A stretch of 64,000 nucleotides of DNA, taken from contig OZ024741.1 in NCBI GenBank assembly GCA_964016885.1, positions 15,748,001 through 15,812,000 on the forward strand. The letters run 5' to 3'. The stretch's first letter is position 1. Every line of letters starts with the position of its first letter. The translations under genes were made by a program, and so were the position numbers. The notes under the pieces are model-generated. The model saw only the letters and a program-made list of their open reading frames with translations. It did no database searches and was not told the DNA's origin. Below are positions 1 through 14,935 of this stretch, in pieces. Source of the DNA: Eledone cirrhosa (Eukaryota).

Positions 1-3000
1 ACAATAACACCAAATACCACAAGAGTAACAATAACAATAACACCAAATACCACAACAGTAACACTAACAATAACACCAAATACCACAACAGTAATACTAA
101 CAATAACACCAAATACCACTACAGTAACACTAACAATAACACCAAATACCACAACAGTAACACTAACAATAACACCAAATACCACAACAGTAATACTAAC
201 AATAACACCAAATACCACTACAGTAACACTAACAATAACACCAAATACCACAACAGTAACACTAACAATATCACCAAATACCACAACAGTAACACTAACA
301 ATAACACCAAATACCACAACAGTAACACTAACAATATCACCAAATACCACTACAGTAACACTAACAATAACACCAAATACCACAACAGTAACACTAACAA
401 TAACACCAAATACCACAACGGTAACACTAACAATAACACCAAATACCACAACAGTAACACTAACAATAACACCAAATACCACTACAGTAACACTAACAAT
501 AACACCAAATACCACAACAGTAACACTAACAATATCACCAAATACCACTACAGTAACACTAACAATAACACCAAATACCACTACAGTAACACTAACAATA
601 TCACCAAATACCACAACAGTAACACTAACAATAACACCAAATACCACAACAGTAACACAAACAATAACACCAAATACCACAACAGTAACACTAACAATTA
701 CACCAAATACCACAACAGTAACACTAACAATGACACCAAATACTACAACAGTAACACTAACAATTACACCAAATACCACAACAGTAACACTAACACTAAC
801 ACCAAATACCACAACAGTAACACTAACAATAACACCAAATACCACAACAGTAACACTAACAATAACACTAAATACCACAACAGTAATACTAACAATAATA
901 CCAAATACCACAACAGTAACACTAACAATTACACCAAATACCACAACAGTAACACTAACACTAACACCAAATACCACAACAGTAACACTAACAATAACAC
1001 CAGATACCACAACAGTAACACTAACAATAACACCAAATACCACAACAGTAACACTAACAATTACACCAAATACCACAACAGTAACACTAACACTAACACC
1101 AAATACCACAACAGTAACACTAACAATAACACCAAATACCACAACAGTAACACTAACAATAACACCAAATACCACAACAGTAATACTAACAATAACACCA
1201 AATACCACAACAGTAACACTAACAATAACACCAAATACCACAACAGTAACACTAACAATAACACCAAATACCACAACAGTAACACTAACAATAACACCAA
1301 ATACCACAACAGTAACACTAACAATAACACCAAATACCACAACAGTAACACTAACAATGACACCAAATACTACAACAGTAACACTAACAATTACACCAAA
1401 TACCACAACAGTAACACTAACACTAACACCAAATACCAAAACAGTAACACTAACAATAACACCAAATACCACAACAGTAACACTAACAATAACACTAAAT
1501 ACCACAACAGTAATACTAACAATAATACCAAATACCGCAACAGTAACACTAACAATTACACCAAATACCACAACAGTAACACTAACAATAACACCAAATA
1601 CCACAACAGTAACACTAACAATTACACCAAATACCACAACAGTAACACTAACACTAACACCAAATACCACAACAGTAACACTAACAATATCACCAAATAC
1701 CACAACAGTAACACTAACAATAACACCAAATACCACAACAGTAATACTAACAATAACACCAAATACCACAACAGTAACACTAACAATTACACCAAATACC
1801 ACAACAGTAACACTAACAATAACACCAAATACCACAACAGTAACACTAACAATATCACCAAATACCACAACAGTAACACTAACAATAACACCAAATACCA
1901 CAACAGTAACACTAACAATAACACCAAATACCACAACAGTAACACTAACAATATCACCAAATACCACAACAGTAACACTAACAATATCACCAAATACCAC
2001 AACAGTAACACTAACAATAACACCAAATACCACAACAGTAATACTAACAATAACACCAAATACCACAACAGTAACACTAACAATAACACCAAATACCACA
2101 ACAGTAACACTAACAATAACACCAAATACCACAACAGTAACACTAACAATTACACCAAATACCACAACAGTAACACTAACAATATCACCAAATACCACAA
2201 CAGTAACACTAACAATAACACCAAATACCACAACAGTAACAATAACAATAACACCAAATACCACAACAGTAACACTAACAATAACACCAAATACCACAAC
2301 AGTAATACTAACAATAACACCAAATACCACAACAGTAACACTAACAATTACACCAAATACCACAACAGTAACACTAACAATATCACCAAATACCACAACA
2401 GTAACACTAACAATAACACCAAATACCACAACAGTAACAATAACAATAACACCAAATACCACAACAGTAACACTAACAATAACACCAAATACCACAACAG
2501 TAACACTAACAATTACACCAAATACCACAACAGTAACACTAACAATATCACCAAATACCACAACAGTAACACTAACAATAACACCAAATACCACAACAGT
2601 AACAATAACAATAACACCAAATACCACAACAGTAACACTAACAATAACACCAAATACCACAACAGTAATACTAACAATAACACCAAATACCACAACAGGA
2701 ACACTAACAATAACACCAAATACCACAACTGTAATACTAACAATTACACCAAATACCACAAAAGTAACACTAACAATAACACCAAATACCACAACAGTAA
2801 CACTAACAATATCACCAAATACCACAACAGTAACACTAACAATAACACCAAATACCACAACATTAACACTAACAATAACACAAAATACCACAACAGTAAC
2901 ACTAACAATAACACCAAATACCACAACAGTAACACTAACAATATCACCAAATACCACTACAGTAACACTAACAATAACACCAAATACCACAACAGTAACA

Positions 3001-3318
3001 CTAACAATAACACCAAATACCACTACAGTAATACTAACAATAACACCAAATACCACAACAGTAACACTAACCATAACACCAAATACCACTACAGTAACAA
3101 TAACAATAACACCAAATACCACTACAGTAACACTAACAATAACACCAAATACCACTACAGTAACAATAACAATAACACCAAATACCACTACAGTAACACT
3201 AACAATAACACCAAATACCACAACAGTAACACTAACAATAACACCAAATACCACTACAGTAACACTAACAATAACACCAAATACCACTACAGTAACACTA
3301 ACAATAACACCAAATACC
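1..3318 (+). repeat. 33-bp minisatellite (ACAATAACACCAAATACCACAACAGTAACACTA), about 100 units, continuing beyond the window start
   Basis: Unit read directly from the sequence; it encodes ITPNTTTVTLT in frame +1; no frameshift seen. Confidence 0.97.
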
Positions 3319-3339
3319 AGAAAAAGAAGGACCAAACGT
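1..3339 (+). CDS. Candidate mucin-like Thr-rich repeat exon (partial), ending ...TPNTRKRRTKR
   Basis: Frame +1 is open from base 1. Many unit variants are synonymous (ACA/ACT, ATA/ATT). Each unit has an N-T-T sequon. A consensus donor GTAAGT lies at 3340-3345 in phase 0, directly after an RxKR motif. Confidence 0.45.
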
Positions 3340-3692
3340 GTAAGTCCCTCAACTTCACTAGGTCCTCAAATCACACGCTGTCGGTTAAAGAAAGCCGAAC
3401 ACATTGGATAACACGTTGTCGTTCCAAGTTCACAGTGTTTGTAATATAGATGCGAGTTTCTATGTGCAAAGACATGACTAAACTGTTGATAGAGGTACTG
3501 GGATCCTTTTATATACACTTATTAATAGGTTGTTAGGGGGTGGGGGAGTAGGTAAAAGAATAACTATCGATTTTCATTTAAAGACCACATAATATATATA
3601 TATAATAGGGGGCGCTAAGGACAGAGACAATGGAAAAAACAACGGAAAAACGTTCAGTCCCATCTCCTCAGACAAGCCCTGGGAATCCCTAC

Positions 3693-3694
3693 GG

Positions 3695-3746
<52 letters not shown>

Positions 3747-3827
3747 ATGTATGCATGTATATGTGTTTGTGGAGGTGTATATCGTACGTGGTGTATTTGT
3801 GCGGGCATATGTCTATGTCTATATGAA

Positions 3828-3877
<50 letters not shown>

Positions 3878-3917
3878 CATATATATATATACATATATAT
3901 GTGTGTGTGTGTGTGTA

Positions 3918-3989
<72 letters not shown>

Positions 3990-3990
3990 C
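3693..3990. repeat. Compound (TA)n/(TG)n microsatellite
   Basis: Seen directly. Confidence 0.95.
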
Positions 3991-3993
3991 CAG

Positions 3994-4026
3994 TTTCTAT
4001 TTGAAGATGTCTTGTTGATCATAGAT
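3994..4026 (+). CDS. Possible 33-nt phase 0-0 micro-exon (FLFEDVLLIID)
   Basis: CAG at 3991-3993 and GTATGT at 4027; the phase matches the donor at 3340; the polypyrimidine tract is poor. Confidence 0.22.
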
Positions 4027-4505
4027 GTATGTAATTGATGAGTTGTCAGAAAACTCTGGTCATTTTGGCATCAGTCAAAGACAAATGCCACAGACAATAA
4101 CAACAACAACAACCAAGGCAGCAGCAACAAAAGCAACAACAGAAACAACAACAACAACCAAGGCAGCAGCAACAAAGGCAAAAACAATAATGAACAACCT
4201 AACAATAAAATTACTGTCAACAAAAAAAACAGAAAAAGAAATCTAAGAAATCTAAGAAGAAAATATAAATCTAAGAAAAAAAGCTAACTTAGATGTAAGA
4301 GACGTAATTAAGCATAAAAAACTTAATGATGTATCATCCCAATCTGTTAATGACATATTTAGAGGAGAAATATATATAGAGGAATGAAGTGAGGATATTA
4401 TATACATATATGATGGCTGCCACCTCCTTATCGAGTATGACATACATACATACATACATACATATATACATACATACATACATACATACATACATACATA
4501 CATAC

Positions 4506-4536
<31 letters not shown>

Positions 4537-4693
4537 CATACATACATACTTACGTGCATACATACATACATACTTACATACATACATACACACATACATA
4601 CATACATACATACATACATACATACATACATACATACATACTTACATACATACATACATACATACATATATACATACATACATACATACATAC

Positions 4694-4724
<31 letters not shown>

Positions 4725-4895
4725 CATACATACTTACGTGCATACATACATACATACTTACATACATACATACACACATACATACATACATACATACATA
4801 CATACATACATACATACATACATACATACATACTTACATACATACATACATACATACTTACATACATACACACATACATACATACTTACATACAT

Positions 4896-5351
4896 GGTGG
4901 CTGCCAACTCGTTTTCGAGTACGGCCACTACTTTATATCCATGTAGGAGAACCCCTACCGATGCGCTGAACGAGTATGACTTTTTAGTCCAGCCAGCGAC
5001 TTGAAAACTCTGGTACAAATACTACACTTGCGACAATTATTGACACATAGTGCTGGGCCCATGGTACCATGTGACGACAAGTGCTGAGAGATTTCCAGAT
5101 ATAAAGCAACGCCTGCGCCGTGAAGCTTTTATAGTGAGCAAAGGCACTGCACAAAGCCAGTCCCACTCTCTTAACCAAGATGATATTTACCAAAAAGAAG
5201 AACAAGTCAACATCATTGGATACCATCAGGGTTGCAGGTGTTATATCAGAGTTTTCCTTCTCCTAGAATTCTGCCTTGACAAAGGCTAAGGGGTCATCTC
5301 TCCCGGTGATTTTGGATGGCCATTCACACTTAAGAGCTTCTTTGCCCTTTG
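4896..5351 (+). mobile_element. Putative 5' leader of the R4/Dong-like element, copy 1 (3'-truncated)
   Basis: Starts GGTGGCTGCCAACTCGTTTTCGAGTACGGCCAC directly after (CATA)n; near-identical to four other copies; no recognisable coding content. Confidence 0.7.
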
Positions 5352-5405
5352 ACATACATACATACACACATACATACATACTTACATACATACATACATA
5401 CATAC

Positions 5406-5436
<31 letters not shown>

Positions 5437-5454
5437 CATACATACATACATACA

Positions 5455-5488
<34 letters not shown>

Positions 5489-5501
5489 CATACATACATA
5501 C

Positions 5502-6410
5502 AAAGAAATCGGAAGATCCTATTCAATGTTCAAACAAGATAAGAAAATTGACCAATTTACAGAAAAAGTTGTGCATGGATACTTGAGGCGTAAAACACAG
5601 ACCATAGAGGGGATAAACCACTCAAAAAGCCTGGCATGGAGTTCCGACAAGTTTATGACATCACACCTTGAGGGATATCTCTATGCAATACAGGAACAAG
5701 AACTCCCTACCAAATATCTGCTGCACAAAAGAGGAGGGCCAGCAGCTGACAATAAATGTAGGCTATGTAAAACAAAGATTGAGGATGTAAGCCACATTGT
5801 TGCCAGCTGCGAAAGAATGTCATCTCGCTACTACCTCCCCATGAGACACGATGGGATAGCTAGAACCATCTGGAACGCACTTCGGAAAACAAAATTAACA
5901 ACAAACGAGGAAGAATATATTGAGACAGATGGCACTAAGGAATACTGGTGGAACCTGAAAATAAAAACTGCCACCAAATTAAAGCACAACCGGCCTGATA
6001 TTGTAGTTTGGGACCACACATTGAAAACGTGTTCTGTTGTGGAGATCAGCTGCCCACTTGATGTAAACGTTGTCAGAAAAATACAGGAGAAGGAGGACAT
6101 CTACGGACCATTGATGACGAGTTTACAAATCCAGTATCCAAGATACACCTTTAGCTTCATACCCATCATTATTGGTGCTACGGGTTATATACCAACCCGC
6201 TTGGACCAAAGTATGACTGAACTTGGATTTGCGGACAAAAAGCGCAGCTCCCTAATTGATAGTCTGCAAATGACTGCGATAGCTGGCACCTTCAAAATTT
6301 GCAAAACATTCTCGCGATTCAAGGGATGACAATTTCTTTTCTTTTACAACCTTGCCACCAGGAAGGTGGCCGGTCAAAAAAATATACTCGAAATTAAGAG
6401 AAAGAGAAAA
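5502..6410 (+). mobile_element. 5'-truncated RLE non-LTR retrotransposon, family A (R4/Dong-like): CCHC knuckle, PD-(D/E)xK endonuclease and 3' UTR
   Basis: Motifs CRLCKTKIEDVSHIVASC, RHD and NRPDIVVWD...VVEISCP...EKEDIY; stop at 6329; short 3' UTR followed by (CATA)n. Confidence 0.92.
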
Positions 6411-6451
6411 CATACATACATACATACATACATACATACATACATACATAC

Positions 6452-6482
<31 letters not shown>

Positions 6483-6491
6483 CATACATAC

Positions 6492-6522
<31 letters not shown>

Positions 6523-6539
6523 CATACATACATACATAC

Positions 6540-6570
<31 letters not shown>

Positions 6571-6655
6571 CATACTTACATACATACATACATACTTACA
6601 TACATACATACTTACATATATATATACATACATACATACATACATACATACATAC

Positions 6656-6686
<31 letters not shown>

Positions 6687-6751
6687 CATACATAAATACT
6701 TACATACATACATACATACTTACATACTTACATACATACATACTTACATAC

Positions 6752-6782
<31 letters not shown>

Positions 6783-6819
6783 CATACATACATACATACA
6801 TACATTCATACATACATAC

Positions 6820-6850
<31 letters not shown>

Positions 6851-6877
6851 CTTACATACATACATACATATATATAT

Positions 6878-7463
6878 GGTGGTGGCTGCCAACTCGTTTT
6901 CGAGTACGGCCACTACTTTATATCCATGTAGGAGAACCCCTACCAATGCGCTGAACGAGTGTGACTTTTTAGTCCAGCCAGAGACTTGAAAACTCTGGTA
7001 CAAACACTACACTTGTGACAATTATTGACACATAGTGCTGGGCCCATGGTACCATGTGACGACAAGTGCAGAGAGATCTCCAGATATAAAGCAATGCCTG
7101 TGCTGTGAAGCTTTTATAGTGAGCAAAGGCACTGCACAAAGCCAGTCCCACTCTCTTAACCAAGATGATATTTACCAAAAAGAAGAACAATTCAGCATCA
7201 TTGGATACCATCAGGCTTGCAGGTGTTATATTAGAGTTTTCCTTCTCCTAGAATTCTGCTTTGACAAAGGCTAAGGGGTCATCTCTCCCGGTGATTTTGG
7301 ATGGCTATTTGACAGGTTTTGTTTTTAGTCCTGCAGGATTTCCAAAGCCACCCTCCTCACCAAGAAACCTTGGTGGGGTTGCCAGTTTAGTCGCCAACGA
7401 CCCGACCATGAGACAGATTGTACTGGGATACATGTTACCAATAGCACCAAGTGGTGACCTGAC
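6878..7463 (+). mobile_element. Putative 5' leader, copy 2 (longest)
   Basis: Same start as copy 1; different and longer sequence after GGATGGC (about 7306); ends in (CATA)n. Confidence 0.7.
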
Positions 7464-7593
7464 ACATACATATATACATACATACATACATACATACATA
7501 CTTACATACCTACATACATACATACATACTTACATATATACATACATACATACATACATACATACTTACATACTTACATACATACATACATAC

Positions 7594-7649
<56 letters not shown>

Positions 7650-7657
7650 TTACATAC

Positions 7658-7688
<31 letters not shown>

Positions 7689-7718
7689 CATACATACATA
7701 CATACTTACATACATACA

Positions 7719-7752
<34 letters not shown>

Positions 7753-7795
7753 CATACATACATACATACATACATACATACATACATACATACAT

Positions 7796-8246
7796 GGTGG
7801 CTGCCAACTCGTTTTCGAGTACGGCCACTACTTTATATCCATGTAGGAGGACCCCTACCGATGCGCTGAACGAGTGTGACTTTTCAGTCCGGCCAGCGAC
7901 TTGAAAACTTTGGTGCAAACACTACACATGTGACAATTATTGACACATAGTGCTGGGCCCATGGTACCATGTGACGACAAGTGCAGAGAGATCTCCAGAT
8001 ATAAAGCAATGCCTGTGCCGTGAAGTTTTTATAGTGAGCAAAGGCACTGCACAAAGCCAGTCCCACTCTCTTAACCAAGATGATATTTACCAAAAAGAAG
8101 AACAAGTCAACATCATTGGATATCATCAGGGTTGCAGGTGTGATATCAGAGTTTTCCTTCTCCTAGAATTCTGCCTTGACAAAGGCTAAGGGGTCATCTC
8201 TCCCGGTGATTTTGGATGGCCATTGATTCTTAAGAGCTCCTTTGCC
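7796..8246 (+). mobile_element. Putative 5' leader, copy 3
   Basis: Near-identical to copy 1; bounded by (CATA)n on both sides. Confidence 0.7.
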
Positions 8247-8395
8247 CATACATACATACATACTTACATACATACTTATATACATACATACATACATACA
8301 TACATACATACATACATACATGCATACATACATACATACATACATTCATACATACATACATACATACATACATACATACATACATACATACATAC

Positions 8396-9654
8396 AGACA
8401 ACATTTGAATGTTGCATCATATCTCTCCGACAACATCTACGAACCTCGAAGCGTAGGAGCCCGTTTCTCGAGCAAGTCTATCTGCATGAAACACATAAGA
8501 TCATGAGAGTTGGGAAGGAATTGCTCGAGAGATATTCCCTGTGTGATAATCAAAAACTCACACCCAGGGATGTCGCTCAGCAGTATCGCAGTGAATCCCA
8601 TGGATGAAAAACTGCAAGCCTGTCAGCAAAATATCATGCATGGATATGTTGCCAGGAAGCTCCAGAGTGAGAGTAATATAGATAAGGAAAGTAGTCTATC
8701 TTGGACCAACAACCGCTATATTGGCTCCCACTTTGAAGGATACGCTTTTGCAATCCAAGAACAGGAGATTAGCACGAAATACCTGATTCACAAAAGAGAT
8801 AGGGATGCAGGCAAACACCTAGATATGATAACAAGTGCAGACTCTGCAGAATAAACATCGAGGATATCACCCATGTCATCAGCAGCTGCCCAAAGATGTC
8901 ATCGTGGTACTATCTTCCTATAAGGCAAGATGTAGTGGCCAAAATACTGTACAATGCAGTTCGTAAAAAAGATAGCCCCGATAATAAACACATTAAAAGC
9001 TACAACAATGTGGAAGACATCCATGTACATAATATGAAAGATTACTGGTGGAATGTTCCAGTAAAAACCCCAATAAAATGCAGGCATAACAGACCAGATA
9101 TTATGATATGGGACAGGGAGAGGAAATCATGCACAGTAGTGGAAATTAGCTGCCCAGCAGATGCCAATATAATATCAAAGATTAGTGAAAAGGAGAATAT
9201 TTATGCAGAACTGATGAGAAATCTGCAGATACTCCACCCTGATTACACCTTCAGATTTATGCCTGTGATTATTGGGGCACTGGGATATGTTAGTAACTGC
9301 CTCAATACAAACCTTGAGAAGATGGGCTTCACAGGAACAGAAAGAACACAACTAGTTAGGAAATTACAAGTACAATCCATTAATGGAACAGTAAAAATTT
9401 GTAAAACATTCCAAAAATGTGGCATCTAATAACTGCATATATACATGTACAGATACAAAGCATATACACATGCGCACATACAACTCAAAACATACACATC
9501 CACACATACAATAACATCCATATCTACACATGCAGACATACATACATATCTACCTAGTTGATGTGTAAATTCCAATGAGAGAGTCTTGTGTCTGTGTTAG
9601 AAACCGACTCTCTCTCTATTGGTAAAACTTTGTGAAATTATAAAACCAGAAGAA
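8396..9654 (+). mobile_element. 5'-truncated RLE non-LTR retrotransposon, family B (frameshifted pseudo-ORF)
   Basis: Motifs MHGY, SHFEGYAFAIQEQEI, YWWN and HNRPDIMIWD...VVEISCP...EKENIY; homologous to but clearly diverged from family A; distinct 3' UTR of about 225 bp followed by (CATA)n. Confidence 0.9.
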
Positions 9655-9789
9655 CATACATACATACATACATACTTACATACTTACATACATACATTCA
9701 TAAATACATACATACATACATACTTACATACATACATACATATATATGTATGTATGTAAGTATGTATGTAAGTATGTATTGTTATATGT

Positions 9790-12691
9790 TTCAGCTGTCA
9801 CATTGCTATCATATAACACACATCTAAAACCACGCAATCAAGATACAAACAGAAAGTCTGAACCAGCGTGGATGCGAAATTTAAAAAGCAAAATTTTGTC
9901 CCTGAGACGAAGTATCTCACACATTGCAGTCGTTATGAAATGCAACATAGAGAGCAACTTCACACGACACCAGGAAGACCTAAAAAAAAAGTTAGTGAGA
10001 CGATTTGGAGATACAAAATTTAAAACTTTGAACTCCAAATTACACCAGTTGAAACAACAACTCACAGCTACAACAGAAAGACTAAAATATAAGTCAACAG
10101 CACATAACGACAAGTGCTAAATAGATTGTTTGCCAGAGATCCTAAATCAGTTTATCGCAGCTTCGGTGGCAAAAGCTCAATCTCTGTAAATGACACCCCT
10201 TCAAAAGAACAGGTTGAGAGCTACTGGAGATCTGTATGGGAAACGGATGACGGATTCAACAGACAAACTAAATGGCTAAAAGAACTGGAACAGGACTACT
10301 GCCAACATGTCCAGACAAAACAATATGACATAGATGGATCAATACTGGAAACAGCTCTACAGAAAATGTCGAATAGGAAATCGCCAGGCCCAGACCTCAT
10401 TACAGGATACTGGTTGAAGAATTTTACTTTCTATCGGCAAGATCTCATACGGCTGTTTACAGAAACCATTAAAGGCACACAAGAACTGCCCAGATGGTTA
10501 TCAACTGCCACTACTCTCCTCATTCCCCAAAATAGCCAAACCATCCTTGCTAAAAATTACCGCCCAATAGCCTGCCAAAACATCATGTATAAATGATATA
10601 CTGGGCGCCTTAACCTGTTCTTACAGGATCACTGTGCTACCAACAACATCATAACACCTGAGCAAGCTGGTGGAAAGAGGGAGGTGTGGGGTTGCATAGA
10701 TCACCTACTAACTAACAAAAGGATTCAGGAAAAAACAACAAAGAATCGCAGAAACATGACTGTGGTGTGGCTGGACTACCAAAAAGCATTTGATAGTGTA
10801 CCTCATGGGTGGATTATTAAGGCTTTACAGTTAGCCAAAGTCCCACAACCATTGGTAGCTGCTGTTGAACGCCTGACCAAGAACTGGTACACCAATTTTA
10901 TCCTTAGAGGTGAGAAGGAGCAAGTTAAGACTGATAAGATACATTACCAGAAGGGCATCTTTCAGGGTGATAGCTTGTCAGTGCTACTCTTCGTTCTCTC
11001 ACTGAATCCACTATCTTACCTACTCAGGAAACAAGGTGGACAAAGAAGTGGGTCCAGAAGTATCTCCCATCTTTTCTTTGTTGATGACCTGAAGTTGTAT
11101 GGCCCATATATCAATTACATCAAGAAACAATTGGACCTCATTACACAATTTTCAACCGACATCAAAATGAAATTTGGTGAGTCCAAGTGTGAATATTTGG
11201 CAGTAAAACGTGGAAGAGCTGTGCCCTCCTCTAGAAATCTAGAGATGAACGGCCTGACAATACAACCTCTACAATCAGGTGACAAATACAGATATCATGG
11301 ACAGGATGAGAATGTCAGATATGATGGACCCATAAATAAGGAGAGAACCAGAACTGAATACGTCAGAAGAGTAAAGAAAATATGGTCATCAGAACTGTCA
11401 GCGTACAACAAATACATTGCCCACAATACTTATGATGTGCCAATTCTAACGCCAACATTTGGCCTACTGAACTGGTCATTGCAAGAACTAAGTGAGATGG
11501 ATGTTAGAACTCGCAAACTTCTCAGTGTTACTGGGAACTTTAACATCAATGGTGATGTAGATAGGCTATACTTCCCACGCAAGGAAGGTGGCCGGGGTCT
11601 AAAATCAATATTAACAACATATGAGACCCGGATAGTAACACTGAAGCAACACCTTCAACAGAGGAAAAAGGTTGGCAACCATCTTGCCCAGGTTTATGAG
11701 CATGAAAAAAAAAATCATTACAATAGCGACTGATCTGGAGGAGAGATATGGAATAAAGCCTGATATAAATCTCTCACCCAGAGAAATCGGAAGATCCTAT
11801 TCAATGTTCAAACAAGATTAAAAAATTGATCAATTTACAGAAAAAGTTGTGCATGGATACTTAAGACGTAAAACACAGACCATAGAGGGGATAAACCACT
11901 CAAAAAGCCTGGCATGGAGTTCCGACAAGTTTATGACATCACACCTTGAGGGATATCTCTATGCAATACAGGAACAAGAACTCCCTACCAAATATCTGCT
12001 GCACAAAAGAGGAGGGCCAGCAGTTGACAATAAATGTAGGCTATGTAAAACAAAGATCAAGGGTGTAAGCCACATTGTTGCCAGCTGCGAAAGAATATCA
12101 TCTCGCTACTACCTCCCCATGAGACACGATGAGATAGCTAGAACCATATGGAACGCACTTCGGAAAACAAAATTAACAACAAACGAAGAAGAATATATTG
12201 AGACAGATGGCACTAAGGAATACCGGTGGAACCTGAAAATAAAAACTGCCACCAAATTAAAGCACAACCGGCCTGATATTGTTGTTTGGGACCACACATT
12301 GAAAACGTGTTCTGTTGTGGAGATCAGCTGCCCACTTGATGTAAACGTTGTCAGAAAAATACAGGAGAAGGAGGACATCTACGGACCATTGATGAGGAGT
12401 TAAACAAATCCAGTATCCAAGATACACCTTTAGCTTCATACCCATCATTATTGGAGCTACGGGTTATATACCAACCCGCTTGGACCAAAGTATGACTGAA
12501 CTTGGATTTGCGGACAAAAAGCGCAGCTCCCTAATTCATAGTCTACAAATGGATGCGATAGCTGGCACCTTCAAAATTTGCAAAACATTCTTGCGATTCA
12601 AGGGATGACAATTTCTTTTTTTTTACAACCTTGCCACCAGGAAGGTGGCCGGTCAAAAAAAAATATACTCGAAATGAAGAGAAAGAGATAA
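9790..12691 (+). mobile_element. Long 5'-truncated family A copy: reverse transcriptase, CCHC knuckle and RLE endonuclease (degenerate)
   Basis: Motifs PAWMRNL, KSPGPD, NYRPIAC, LDYQKAFDSVPH, GIFQGDSLS, SHLFFVDDLKLY, RKEGGRGL, CRLC...H...C and RPDIVVWD. Disrupted by a stop at 10594-10596 and frameshifts near 10115, 11710 and 12400. Confidence 0.95.
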
Positions 12692-12734
12692 CATACATAC
12701 ATACATACATACATACATACATACATACACACAT

Positions 12735-13137
12735 CGTGGCTGCCAACTCGTTTTCGAGTACGGCCACTACTTTATATCCGTGTAGGAGAACCCCTACCGA
12801 TGCGCTGAACGAGTGTGACTTTTTAGTCCAGCCAGCGACTTGAAAACTCTGGTACAAACACTACACTTGTGACAATTATTGACACATAGTGCTGGGCCCA
12901 TTGTACCATGTGACGACAAGTGCAGAGAGATCTCCAGATATAAAGCAATGCCTGTGCCGTGAAGCTTTTATAGTGAGCAAAGGCATTGCACAAAGCCAGT
13001 CCCACTCTCTTAACCAAGATGATATTTACCAAAAAGAAGAAAAAGTCAACATCATTGGATACCATCAGGGTTGCAGGTCTTATATCAGAGTTTTCCTTCT
13101 CCTAGAATTCTGCCTTGACAAAGGCTAAGTGGTTATC

Positions 13138-13138
<1 letters not shown>
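12735..13138 (+). mobile_element. Putative 5' leader, copy 4
   Basis: Follows the long family A copy after about 43 bp of (CATA)n; ends just after AAGGCTAAG. Confidence 0.7.
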
Positions 13139-13168
<30 letters not shown>

Positions 13169-13204
13169 CATACATACATACATACATACATACATACATA
13201 CATA

Positions 13205-13840
13205 CATGTACATAATATGAAAGAGTACAGGTGGAATGTTTCAGTAAAAAGCCCAATAAAATACAGGCATAACAGACCAGATATTATGATATGGGACAGG
13301 GAGAAGCAAACATGCACAGTAGTGGAAATTAGCTGCCCAGAAGATGCCAATATAATATCAAAGATTAGCGAAAAGGAGAATATTTATGTAGAACTGATGA
13401 GAAATCTGCAGATACTCCACCCTGATTACACCTTCAGATTTATTCCTGTGATTATTGGGGCACTGGAGTATGTTAGTAACTGCCTCAATACAAATCTTGA
13501 GAAGCTAGGCTTCACAGGAACAGAAAGAACACAACTAGTTAGGAAATTACAAGTACAATCCATTAATGGAACAGTAAAAATATGTAAAACATTCCAAACA
13601 TTTTGCATCTAATAACTGCATATACACATGTACAGATGCAAAGCATATACACATGCACACATACAACTCAAAACATACACATCCACACATACAATAACAT
13701 CCATAACTCCGCATGCAGACATACATAAATATATACCTAGTTGATGTTGTGTAAATTCCAATGAGAGAGTCTTGTGTCTATGTTAGAAACCGACTCTCTC
13801 TCTATTGGGAAAAGTTTGTGAAATTGTAAAACCAGAATAA
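13205..13840 (+). mobile_element. 5'-truncated family B copy (endonuclease and 3' UTR)
   Basis: Near-identical to 9022-9654. Confidence 0.9.
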
Positions 13841-13861
13841 CATACATACATACATACATAC

Positions 13862-13892
<31 letters not shown>

Positions 13893-13917
13893 CATACATA
13901 CATACTTACATACATAC

Positions 13918-13949
13918 AAAAAATTTGTGAAATTATAAAACCAAAAGAA
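13918..13949 (+). mobile_element. Family B 3'-terminal stub of about 30 bp
   Basis: TTTGTGAAATTATAAAACCAAAAGAA matches the family B 3' end and lies inside (CATA)n. Confidence 0.8.
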
Positions 13950-13995
13950 CATACATACATACATACAAACATACTTACATTCATACATACATACA

Positions 13996-14029
<34 letters not shown>

Positions 14030-14048
14030 CATATATTCATACATACAT

Positions 14049-14282
14049 GGTGGCTGCCAACTCGTTTTCGAGTACGGCCACTACTTTATATCCATGTAGG
14101 AGAACTCCTACCGATGCACTGAACGAGTGTGACTTTTTAGTCCAGCCAGCGACTTGAAAACTCTGGTACAAACTCTACACTTGTGACAATTATTGACACA
14201 TAGTGCTGGGCCCATGGTACCATGTGACGACAAGTGCAGAGAGATCTCCAGATATAAAGCAATGCCTGTGCCGTGAAGCTTT
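14049..14282 (+). mobile_element. Putative 5' leader, copy 5 (shortest)
   Basis: Same start as the other copies; ends near (TA)n. Confidence 0.7.
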
Positions 14283-14935
14283 CCCGATATATATATATCT
14301 ATATAAAGTTTATTGGCATGTCATTTTCCGTTACTATTGGGTCATCAGTTTGAGCAATTGAGACATTAGTGGTTCCGGTTTACTGTGTGGTATATTGCAC
14401 ATTTGCTGTTATAACGTGGTCGGTATCCTTCATAATTAGAATAATTAGAATAATAGTAAAACTAAGAATAGTAAGTAGGATCGCGGTGTCAAAATATCAC
14501 CATTATGTTTATTCACGTGTGGCGCACGTTTCGCGATTGGTCAGCTCAACGTAAAATCAGTATCGAGCGCTGGAATTGATAGCTTGTCAGACGCAGGTTT
14601 TTTTTTAATGAGAGGAGCTATCAACCTACAGCTTTCCTGAGAATTACTTTAAAAGATACCCCTGTCTCTAGAATGCTCAGCCACTAGCACAGTAATGCCT
14701 TGAACAGGTTATTCTGTTGAACGTATAAAGGGGACACTCATCGTCGAAACTGACGAAGATCCCTTCCAGTTATTGTGCACCCCGTCTATATGATACTGAC
14801 ATTCATATGTATATGTGGGCATGTATATTTCTTGTGCATCATTATTGTTATTTATATTATTTTGTTGTTAATGTTATATTGTGTTCCTTCATTCAGTATA
14901 GAATTATATGACACCTGAGGAGAATATATATATTT

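What the first reader, a model, noticed from the sequence alone, without database searches (positions are those of the whole stretch)
4412..14286. (CATA)n-targeted retrotransposon train: two RLE families in a single-orientation array
Seen: at least ten element fragments, all on the plus strand, nearly every junction a (CATA)n tract, from two diverged families (A and B) sharing the same repeat, including a 30-bp 3' stub. Established: R4-clade Dong elements target simple repeats such as (TAA)n through their RLE nuclease. Inference: (CATA)n specificity, with the array regenerating its own target much as telomeric retrotransposon arrays do. This would imply an RLE nuclease/RT with tetranucleotide-repeat specificity.
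Basis: partly seen in the sequence, partly recalled or inferred. Interest (0 to 1): 0.75.

Follow-up and report, generated by a model that had tools for sequence, protein, structure and literature searches.

The report
Jumping genes nested in CATA repeats
One (CATA)n simple repeat in a probably cephalopod genome holds at least ten separate insertions from three jumping-gene families; across the genome all three sit inside such repeats, which is a known kind of behaviour, here with a repeat motif I did not find reported for this R2-like enzyme type.

Summary
Window 4412-14286 holds 10 element fragments plus one stub, separated by (CATA)n tracts. They come from three families, not two.

- **A and B** are autonomous LINEs on the plus strand: 2 A fragments and 3 B fragments. 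Each has a single ORF with a reverse transcriptase, a CCHC motif and a restriction-like endonuclease (RLE), and R2 is the closest solved relative.
- **X** is a 606-nt non-coding element. All 5 copies, plus a related stub, lie on the minus strand, so "all on the plus strand" is wrong.

All truncation points differ, so these are at least 10 independent insertions and not a segmental duplication.

Genome-wide, using a criterion of at least 20 of 24 flanking bases matching the repeat:

| Family | 5' junctions in repeat | 3' junctions in repeat |
|---|---|---|
| A | 22 of 26 | 23 of 29 |
| B | 15 of 23 | 21 of 29 |
| X, in (ATGT)n or (AT)n | 23 of 29 | 25 of 29 |

Background is about 0.3% of positions for (CATA)n. 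Full-length A (6 of 6) and full-length B (14 of 14) start right after (CATA)n.

Repeat-specific insertion is therefore supported. Microsatellite-specific RLE LINEs are already known (Dong, Togen, some HERO), and (ACAY)n targeting is known for the APE-type Waldo. R4/Dong membership could not be tested. Verdict: a new member of a known kind, of moderate interest.

The parts
4412..4439 (-). 28-nt 3' stub of an X-related subfamily (tail type ...GGCAGCCATC)
   Evidence: Read. The same tail type occurs in L043, L068, L072 and L078.
4440..4895 (+). (CATA)n tract, about 114 units
   Evidence: TRF
4896..5354 (-). X copy 1, 5'-truncated (reference positions 148-606, 95.9% identity)
5352..5502 (+). (CATA)n tract lying between two 5' ends (X1 and A1), so it is target sequence and not a tail
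5501..6410 (+). A copy 1: the 3' 910 nt (reference 3316-4225, 98.2%), covering the CCHC and RLE coding part and the 3' UTR
6410..6874 (+). (CATA)n tract, about 116 units
6881..7461 (-). X copy 2, full length (reference 1-606, 91.4%, with an internal deletion); the oldest copy
7464..7795 (+). (CATA)n tract
7796..8247 (-). X copy 3 (reference 155-606, 99.3%); the youngest copy. It ends in a 3'-terminal hairpin.
   Evidence: fold
8247..8404 (+). (CATA)n tract between the 5' ends of X3 and B1
8400..9654 (+). B copy 1: the 3' ~1.25 kb (reference ~1861-3127, 96.0%), covering the CCHC and RLE part and the 3' UTR
9654..9746 (+). (CATA)n tract
9741..9779 (+). Short inverted (TATG)n at the 5' junction of A2, an inverted copy of the adjacent CTTA-variant repeat
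9774..12688 (+). A copy 2: 2.9 kb (reference 1308-4222, 97.1%). It carries RT, CCHC and RLE, but the frame is broken into at least five open pieces.
12691..12734 (+). (CATA)n tract
12736..13138 (-). X copy 4 (reference 203-605, 96.0%)
13139..13207 (+). (CATA)n tract between the 5' ends of X4 and B2
13200..13837 (+). B copy 2 (reference 2492-3124, 94.8%)
13840..13918 (+). (CATA)n tract
13919..13949 (+). B copy 3: a 31-nt 3' stub (reference 3097-3127)
13950..14048 (+). (CATA)n tract
14049..14282 (-). X copy 5 (reference 373-606, 95.7%). Its 5' end abuts non-repeat DNA and marks the right edge of the array.

Best explanation
Window 4412-14286 is one (CATA)n microsatellite that was hit at least ten separate times by three young non-LTR retrotransposon families, each of which is flanked by simple repeat on both sides across the genome; the A/B protein is predicted to recognise the repeat duplex and would nick the (TATG)n strand to prime reverse transcription. 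Shown: A is about 4.23 kb and B about 4.1 kb. Each encodes one protein (A: 1168 aa) with an N-terminal three-helix domain, a reverse transcriptase, a CCHC motif and a restriction-like endonuclease. A and B always lie with (CATA)n on their sense strand. X is a 606-nt non-coding element ending in a hairpin, and it always lies the other way round, in (ATGT)n or (AT)n. Copies are 5'-truncated at different points. Their 5' joints show excess microhomology with the repeat. The repeat persists on both sides of each insertion, so later insertions pile up into trains with a polarity fixed by the repeat strand. Inferred by analogy with R2: the N-terminal Myb-like domain and the RLE likely read the repeat, the RLE likely nicks the TATG strand, and the 3'-OH would prime cDNA synthesis from the 3' UTR. 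The enzyme that moves X is unknown.
For: - **Anatomy and independent truncation points:**
- **Three tracts are target, not tail:** 5352-5502, 8247-8404 and 13139-13207 each lie between two 5' ends.
- **Genome-wide junctions:** 29 loci per family were examined, taken from the 40 scored hits out of 399 (A), 916 (B) and 1667 (X) candidates. The criterion was at least 20 of 24 nt matching the repeat. A: 5' 22 of 26, 3' 23 of 29. B: 5' 15 of 23, 3' 21 of 29. X: 5' 23 of 29, 3' 25 of 29. For X the same repeat type lies on both sides in 27 of 29 (my tally of the rows printed).
- **Background:** 0.31% of positions for CATA, 0.25% for TATG and 2.7% for AT, in 200 kb.
- **Full-length 5' ends preceded by (CATA)n:** A 6 of 6, B 14 of 14.
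- **Not merely insertion into other copies' tails:** DNA beyond the upstream tract is not A/B/X in 12 of 26 A loci and 12 of 23 B loci.
- **Polarity:** every A/B neighbour of an A/B copy is co-oriented and every X neighbour is opposite.
- **Nesting is general:** 19 of 29 A loci, 14 of 29 B loci and 14 of 29 X loci hold another A/B/X element within 1.5 kb. In random DNA the density is 0.25 elements per 10 kb.
- **Microhomology at 5' joints:** A averages 2.36 nt against 0.41 expected, with 7 of 22 joints at 3 nt or more against 2.6% expected. B averages 1.25 nt against 0.42.
- **Protein:** Pfam RVT_1 at E 2.9e-24 and zf-RVT. A 60-sequence profile aligns to R2Tg through the CCHC, RH, PD, D/E and K..Y motifs at E 4e-69, against about 4e-29 for LINE-1 ORF2p. 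The AF2 model has pLDDT 87 and its best Foldseek hits are R2 proteins at E 5e-36. VIA-align gives R2Tg Z 24.2 over model residues 336-1168.
- **N-terminal domain:** three helices with pLDDT about 90. The top structural neighbours are Myb/SANT DNA-binding domains at Z 4.6-5.8.
- **Youth:** full-length A copies are about 99.4% identical. 8 of 8 fetched copies have the intact 1174-codon frame. By my count, about 35 of the 109 scored hits lie in such a frame.
Against: - No biochemical, expression or polymorphism data were obtained.
- The loci examined are the best-scoring and therefore youngest copies, not a random sample.
- 4 of 26 A and 8 of 23 B 5' junctions are not in the repeat by the criterion used.
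- Sequence alone cannot tell whether the protein, annealing of a (CAUA)n RNA tail to the nicked target, or both give the specificity.
- The Myb-like assignment rests on Z scores below 8 and no significant Foldseek hit.
- By structure alone, LINE-1 ORF2p ties with R2 (Z 25.6 against 24.2). The R2 affinity rests on the sequence profile and the CCHC and RLE motifs.
- The autonomous partner of X was not found.
Confidence: 0.8

Rival explanations
1. The repeats are made by the elements rather than targeted. On this view (CATA)n tails arise by reverse-transcriptase slippage on a short terminal repeat, and trains arise because new RNAs anneal to older tails, with no sequence-specific nuclease involved.
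For: Every A/B copy ends in (CATA)n. Some upstream tracts are the tails of another A/B copy: 5 of 26 for A and 3 of 23 for B are B 3' ends. The 5' microhomology shows that annealing matters at least at the 5' joint. In R2, 3' homology is not required but helps priming (PMC10499050, passages seen).
Against: Three tracts in the window lie between two 5' ends and cannot be tails. In 12 of 26 A loci and 12 of 23 B loci the upstream tract is bounded by DNA that is not A/B/X. Full-length copies are preceded by the repeat: A 6 of 6, B 14 of 14. For X the tail type, (AT)n or (ATGT)n, matches the 5' flank in 27 of 29 loci (my tally). A fixed element-borne template would not give that.
Confidence: 0.15
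2. The cluster is one or a few segmental or tandem duplications of an ancestral unit of element plus repeat.
For: The order X-repeat-A/B recurs (X1-A1, X3-B1, X4-B2). X1 and X3 are truncated only 7 nt apart, at reference positions 148 and 155.
Against: All ten fragments have different truncation points, and the tract lengths differ. Identities to the family references range from 91.4% to 99.3%. X1 and X3 differ by about 6% over 300 nt. The same nesting is seen at 47 of 87 unrelated loci.
Confidence: 0.03
3. Passive accumulation: the elements insert anywhere but survive preferentially in repeat-rich, low-recombination DNA, as was proposed for Drosophila Waldo-A/B near CA repeats.
For: The window is dominated by long minisatellite arrays. 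PMC3812793 (passage seen) mentions passive accumulation for Waldo-A/B.
Against: The association is exact to the base at both junctions. It holds at loci where the repeat is only a few units long inside unique DNA, for example L006, L017 and L019. A strict strand polarity is not expected from passive retention.
Confidence: 0.02

Closest known systems
Dong elements (Bombyx mori Dong, DongAg, DongBg from the snail Biomphalaria), grouped with R4 among RLE-encoding non-LTR retrotransposons
   Same: Both are microsatellite-specific LINEs with a restriction-like endonuclease, and Dong also occurs in a mollusc (PMC3812793 and PMC3636483, passages seen). Octopus repeat libraries list 'Dong-R4' LINEs. 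The O. vulgaris annotation gives 5 families and 1129 recent insertions covering 4.73 Mb, which is about 4.2 kb each and similar to A's 4.23 kb (PMC13282606, table seen). A full-length Dong is reported in the O. bimaculoides library (PMC9115989, passage seen).
   Different: The target here is the tetranucleotide (CATA)n, not (TAA)n. Clade membership by RT phylogeny was not tested. The passages I saw in the octopus papers say nothing about target specificity.
R2 (R2Bm, R2Tg)
   Same: R2 is the closest solved relative by sequence profile (E 4e-69) and by Foldseek (E 5e-36). Both share the order RT, linker, CCHC, RLE, the conserved nuclease motifs, a single ORF and a three-helix Myb-type N-terminal domain (predicted here).
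   Different: R2 inserts into one site of 28S rDNA and has N-terminal zinc finger(s). In A no zinc-finger family was detected in the N-terminal part by Pfam, and the target is a microsatellite. Identity to R2 in the structural alignments is only 17-21%.
Waldo (R1 clade; WaldoAg1/2, WaldoFs1)
   Same: It targets (ACAY)n, which includes the (ACAT)n = (CATA)n motif (PMC3812793, passage seen).
   Different: Waldo is an APE-type element of insects. A and B have no APE domain and carry a C-terminal RLE.
Togen, (TG)n-specific, and the microsatellite-specific HERO families
   Same: These are RLE-type LINEs specific for simple repeats (PMC4640811, passages seen).
   Different: They have other repeat motifs and other hosts (fish, leech). 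Their relationship to A/B was not tested.
SINEs and short retroposons with a 3' stem-loop plus microsatellite tail (for example RTE-related short retroposons, PMC6007223, abstract seen)
   Same: X is short (606 nt) and non-coding. About half of its copies are full length, and it has a 3'-terminal hairpin followed by a simple repeat.
   Different: No Pol III-type head was detected and no partner LINE sharing its 3' end was found. X is flanked by the same repeat on both sides, which indicates targeting and not just a templated tail.

Membership tests
RLE-encoding (R2-group) non-LTR retrotransposons | Reverse transcriptase domain of the non-LTR type | tested here: met
   Pfam RVT_1 at E 2.9e-24. 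The best PDB relatives are R2 and LINE-1 ORF2p.
RLE-encoding (R2-group) non-LTR retrotransposons | C-terminal CCHC motif followed by a PD-(D/E)xK restriction-like endonuclease | tested here: met
   CRxC..E..H..C (residues 980-997), RH (1009), NRPD (1057-1060), VVEISCP (1073) and EKxxxY (1090) are conserved across 60 relatives. They align to the same motifs of R2Tg. The model's C-terminus aligns to the R2 C-terminus.
RLE-encoding (R2-group) non-LTR retrotransposons | No apurinic/apyrimidinic-type endonuclease; single ORF | tested here: met
   Pfam finds only RVT_1 and zf-RVT. There is one 1174-codon open frame in 8 of 8 full-length copies.
R4 clade / Dong | RT-domain phylogeny places the element with R4, Dong and Rex6 | not testable with these tools
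   No labelled reference sequences (Repbase or Dfam) could be obtained. Homologues returned carry no clade names.
R4 clade / Dong | Insertion specific for a repeated target (rDNA or microsatellite) | tested here: met
   The motif is (CATA)n, not Dong's (TAA)n.
R2 sensu stricto | Insertion at the conserved 28S rDNA site | tested here: not met
   All examined copies lie in microsatellites.
R2 sensu stricto | N-terminal zinc finger(s) plus a Myb domain | tested here: inconclusive
   No zinc-finger family in the N-terminal part by Pfam. A three-helix domain resembling Myb/SANT is predicted, but with Z of at most 5.8.
Waldo (R1 clade) | N-terminal APE-type endonuclease | tested here: not met
   No such domain; a C-terminal RLE is present instead.
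SINE / non-autonomous retroposon (for X) | Short, non-coding, 5'-truncated copies with a constant 3' end | tested here: met
   The unit is 606 nt. 75 copies with an intact 3' end were found in 413 kb of fetched loci, and about half reach the 5' end. The C2H2-like peptide has no homologue among longer proteins and is absent from the related subfamilies.
SINE / non-autonomous retroposon (for X) | Pol III-type head (tRNA, 5S, 7SL) and a 3' end shared with a partner LINE | tested here: inconclusive
   Rfam gave no tRNA, 5S or 7SL match at E of 1 or below. No LINE with the X tail was seen among the 3' ends abutting (ATGT)n in the fetched loci.

The most novel reading that the evidence does not exclude
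A and B belong to an undescribed lineage of RLE LINEs, with a lone Myb-like N-terminal reader and insect relatives that carry an OTU-like protease. This lineage reads a tetranucleotide repeat. X is its non-autonomous parasite, inserting in the opposite polarity by using the nick the same enzyme makes on the other strand of the repeat.
Probability: 0.07. Interest if true: 0.75.

Novelty: new member of a known kind. Interest (0 to 1): 0.4.

Why it matters
Site-specific RLE retrotransposons, R2 above all, are being developed as tools for inserting genes (listings and abstracts of PMC13586686 and PMC12222951). How such proteins choose their target is known in detail only for R2 (PMC10499050).

Family A offers a natural contrast case:
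- dozens of intact, nearly identical copies;
- a compact 1168-aa protein;
- a very simple target, a 4-bp repeat read with fixed strand polarity;
- an N-terminus without a detectable zinc finger.

For genome biology, the result explains why some microsatellites in this genome grow into kilobase-scale trains of elements. It also shows that a very abundant short element uses the same repeats from the opposite strand.

Tried and rejected
- **Segmental duplication** is rejected by the distinct truncation points.
- **X as the 3' end of a coding LINE.** The minus-strand ORF ending in a C2H2-like motif (Pfam zf-C2H2 at E 6e-5, below the cut-off) has no homologue among longer proteins. It also lies in a segment missing from related X subfamilies. 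I dropped this reading.
- **Coupling of X to A/B insertion events.** Tail-to-tail and head-to-head A/B-X neighbours are about equally common: 4-5 against 4 around A loci, and 3 against 3 in the window. This fits independent insertions. The resemblance between the X 3' end and the complement of the A 5' end (about 7 of 10 bases) is not shared by B, so I treat it as chance.
- **Rfam.** Only sub-threshold low-complexity miRNA matches in the repeat tracts.
- **Foldseek on the N-terminal domain.** Nothing at E of 0.001 or below.
- **Labelled RT phylogeny.** Not possible, because no named R4, Dong, HERO or NeSL sequences were available.
- **Papers not held.** The Dong paper (PMC309301) and the Kapitonov 2009 classification paper.
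- **Literature searches.** A search for an OTU protease in non-LTR elements found nothing useful. A search for ACAT with microsatellite and non-LTR retrotransposon found no report of an RLE element specific for this motif. Repbase Reports and Dfam were not searchable, so prior description there cannot be excluded.
- **Earlier notes of this scan.** None for this genome or this protein.
Full report
**What is in the sequence**

Between 4412 and 14286 the window holds ten (CATA)n tracts of 44 to 465 nt. Eleven pieces of repeated DNA lie between them. I aligned natural genomic reference copies to the window: A, 4225 nt from L044; B, 3127 nt from L111; X, 606 nt from L106. The result is:

| Piece | Window position | Strand | Reference positions | Identity |
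|---|---|---|---|---|
| X1 | 4896-5354 | − | 148-606 | 95.9% |
| A1 | 5501-6410 | + | 3316-4225 | 98.2% |
| X2 | 6881-7461 | − | 1-606 | 91.4% |
| X3 | 7796-8247 | − | 155-606 | 99.3% |
| B1 | ~8400-9654 | + | ~1861-3127 | 96.0% |
| A2 | 9774-12688 | + | 1308-4222 | 97.1% |
| X4 | 12736-13138 | − | 203-605 | 96.0% |
| B2 | 13200-13837 | + | 2492-3124 | 94.8% |
| B3 stub | 13919-13949 | + | 3097-3127 | 93.5% |
| X5 | 14049-14282 | − | 373-606 | 95.7% |

A 28-nt stub of an X-related subfamily lies at 4412-4439 (−). No other copy of A, B or X occurs in the 64-kb window.

X has a constant left end (GGTGGCTGCC...) and a variable right end in window coordinates. That is the signature of a 5'-truncated retroelement on the minus strand. 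19 of the 22 fragment sides abut (CATA)n directly.

**Not a duplication**

Every fragment has its own truncation point and its own identity to the family reference, and the tract lengths differ. The region therefore records at least ten separate insertion events.

**What the families are**

The own genome (3.0 Gb, 1796 contigs) holds many copies. The 3' 160 nt of A gave 399 first-look candidates, the B 3' end 916 and the X 3' end 1667. These are lower bounds, and 40 were scored in each case.

*Family A*
- Full-length A is about 4.23 kb, and copies are about 99.4% identical to each other. 8 of 8 fetched copies carry the same open 1174-codon frame. By my count, about 35 of the 109 scored RT matches lie in such a frame.
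- The protein from the first ATG is 1168 aa (P0001).
- Pfam finds RVT_1 (E 2.9e-24) and zf-RVT.
- A profile of A with 59 homologues aligns to the zebra-finch R2 protein from the RT through the C-terminus at E 4e-69. LINE-1 ORF2p reaches only about 4e-29.
- The CCHC motif (980-997), RH (1009), NRPD (1057-1060), VVEISCP (1073) and EKxxxY (1090) are conserved in the family and pair with the corresponding R2 motifs.
- The AlphaFold model is confident (pLDDT 87.1, pTM 0.79). Its best Foldseek matches are R2 proteins: 9dou at E 5e-36 and 8gh6 at E 1e-31.
- VIA-align gives R2Tg Z 24.2 (rmsd 4.2, 774 aligned, model 336-1168). This ties with LINE-1 ORF2p at Z 25.6. The R2 affinity therefore rests on the sequence profile and the nuclease motifs, not on fold alone.
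- Residues about 20-75 form three helices. Invariant tryptophans W20 and W50, plus P55 and L64, are seen in the 28 N-terminal stretches aligned. The nearest folds are Myb/SANT DNA-binding domains: Zeste Z 5.8, TRF1 5.5, Cdc5 5.3, c-Myb R1 4.6. These scores are modest, and Foldseek found nothing significant. The assignment is a prediction.

*Family B*
- B is 49% identical to A over 961 aa.
- It is older: 91-95% protein identity among copies, with mostly broken frames.
- It is about 4.1 kb long.

*Host*
- The best named homologue of A is a hypothetical protein of the octopod Argonauta hians (67% identity over 58% of the query). The best unnamed hits are 59-60% identical.
- The host is therefore probably a cephalopod whose own proteins are not in that collection. 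This is an inference.

*Family X*
- X is a 606-nt unit. 75 copies with an intact 3' end were found in the 413 kb of fetched loci, and about half reach the 5' end.
- The C2H2-like peptide at its 3' part has no homologue among longer proteins. It sits in a segment that related subfamilies lack. X is therefore non-coding.
- X ends in a hairpin directly at its 3' terminus (−14.8 kcal/mol, z −3.07). A related subfamily keeps the outer stem through a paired change, GUGGC/GCCAC to AUGGC/GCCAU (read).
- Rfam finds no tRNA, 5S or 7SL head.
- In 200 kb of arbitrarily chosen genome there are 5 X copies and no A or B, so X is very abundant.

**Is the repeat a target?**

I examined the 29 non-window loci fetched for each family and asked whether the 24 nt next to each junction match the repeat in at least 20 positions.

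| Family | 5' junctions in repeat | 3' junctions in repeat | Repeat |
|---|---|---|---|
| A | 22 of 26 | 23 of 29 | (CATA)n |
| B | 15 of 23 | 21 of 29 | (CATA)n |
| X | 23 of 29 | 25 of 29 | (ATGT)n or (AT)n |

For X, the same repeat type lies on both sides in 27 of 29 loci (my tally of the rows printed).

In 20 arbitrary 10-kb stretches the same criterion is met at 0.31% (CATA), 0.25% (TATG) and 2.7% (AT) of positions.

Several further observations point the same way:
- Full-length copies start right after the repeat: A 6 of 6 and B 14 of 14, with a few variable extra bases such as (CAGT)n.
- The repeat is not just the tail of a previous copy. In the window, three tracts lie between two 5' ends.
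- Genome-wide, the DNA beyond the upstream tract is not A/B/X in 12 of 26 A loci and 12 of 23 B loci.
- Several copies sit in repeats of only two to ten units inside unique DNA, for example L006, L017 and L019.
- The four X copies with an intact 3' end in the arbitrary sample behave the same way: 4 of 4 have the repeat at the 3' side and 3 of 4 at the 5' side.

**Polarity and nesting**

Around A and B copies, every neighbouring A/B element is co-oriented and every neighbouring X is opposite. Around X copies, every A/B is opposite. Some "B internal" matches in that table may be repeat-like artefacts. Without them the rule still holds for all remaining A/B and A/B-X neighbour pairs.

A further A/B/X element lies within 1.5 kb in 19 of 29 A loci, 14 of 29 B loci and 14 of 29 X loci. 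The density in arbitrary DNA is 0.25 elements per 10 kb. Trains like this one are therefore common in this genome.

**How it most likely works**

Shown:
- Insertion is into the repeat, with fixed polarity and frequent 5' truncation.
- 5' joints show excess microhomology to the repeat. For A the mean is 2.36 nt against 0.41 expected, with 7 of 22 joints at 3 nt or more against 2.6% expected. For B the mean is 1.25 nt against 0.42. Three or four independent A copies are truncated at the same internal CATAC.

Inferred from R2 (PMC10499050, passages read): there the N-terminal zinc finger and Myb domains read an upstream motif, the RLE reads and nicks the bottom strand, and 3' homology is dispensable but helpful. 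By analogy:
- the A/B protein likely binds its own 3' UTR, which folds into a hairpin in A and in B;
- it likely recognises the (CATA)n duplex through the Myb-like domain and the RLE;
- it likely nicks the (TATG)n strand, whose 3'-OH would prime cDNA synthesis.

Whether tails also add new repeat units is not shown.

X needs priming from the (ACAT)n strand. Its mobilising enzyme is unknown. A/B-X neighbours are tail-to-tail and head-to-head about equally often, so nothing suggests that X insertion is coupled to an A/B event.

**Comparison with what is known**

[quoted passage not shown] Some HERO families and the Togen families are microsatellite-specific (PMC4640811, passages).
- Dong elements, including one from a snail, insert into (TAA)n. 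The APE-type Waldo elements insert into (ACAY)n (PMC3812793, passage; PMC3636483, passage).
- Octopus genomes are reported to carry young "Dong-R4" LINEs averaging about 4.2 kb (PMC13282606, Table 1). A full-length Dong is reported in the O. bimaculoides library (PMC9115989, passage). The passages I saw do not mention a target.
- I found no report of an RLE element specific for (CATA)n/(ACAT)n in the searches. Repbase Reports and Dfam could not be searched.
- I could not place A/B in a labelled RT tree, so "R4/Dong" remains likely but untested.

**Verdict**

This is a clear, well-populated example of microsatellite-specific RLE LINEs, with a repeat motif not reported for this enzyme type in what I could search. 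A strictly opposite-polarity non-coding companion family shares the same repeats. It is a new member of a known kind and of moderate interest, mainly as a natural, apparently active contrast case to R2 for studying target choice.

Noticed in passing
window 1-3319; 15149-38390; 45793-49411; 52542-56689: The window is dominated by long minisatellite arrays: a 33-bp unit x100, a 69/138-bp GT-rich unit spanning 23 kb, a TGG-rich 63-bp unit and a 57/60-bp unit. The retrotransposon train sits in very repeat-rich DNA.
   Followed up: no
window 60925-61450: A ~460-nt imperfect (TGTA)n tract followed by a short (ACAT)n tract carries no A, B or X copy. It is a long, unoccupied potential target of opposite polarity in the same window.
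   Followed up: partly
window 9741-9779: Between the (CATA)n tract and the 5' end of A2 lies a 38-nt inverted (TATG)n. It is the reverse complement of the neighbouring CTTA-variant repeat. It may be a snap-back or template-switch scar at the 5' joint.
   Followed up: no
L043:2333-2860 (5' UTR of full-length A): The 5' UTR of A contains two tandem ~190-nt monomers, each starting ATAAGTGTTTGAACTGT (read). This is reminiscent of the monomeric promoters of some LINEs.
   Followed up: no
L135-L151 (5' ends of full-length B): Full-length B copies carry variable extra bases, (CAGT)1-4 or CATC/CATTC, between the (CATA)n and the element start. The first ~10 nt of A (CAATGGCGACC) and B (CAACGCGATC) are similar although the rest of the 5' UTRs are not.
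   Followed up: partly
L004, L053, L043:6457-6700, L016, L012, L027: X belongs to a larger group of short elements. They share a 5' head and a central core, but differ in inserted segments and in tail variants (...GGCAGCCACC...GGCAGCCATC...TTTGCAGCCATC). The tail variants all keep a terminal stem-loop.
   Followed up: partly
proteins P0085, P0087 (homologues): Distant, unnamed relatives of the A protein (33-36% identity) carry an extra N-terminal OTU-like cysteine protease region (PF02338 listed for P0087; GDG.C motif visible). I found no literature on this in the searches.
   Followed up: partly
L111 (G000:C9:27776000-27783500): One B copy lies in an (AT)n-rich tract and its tail reads ...AGAAGAACATATATAT. 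Some A copies likewise end in CATA followed by (AT)n (L009, L020). A/B therefore tolerate AT-rich variants of the repeat.
   Followed up: no
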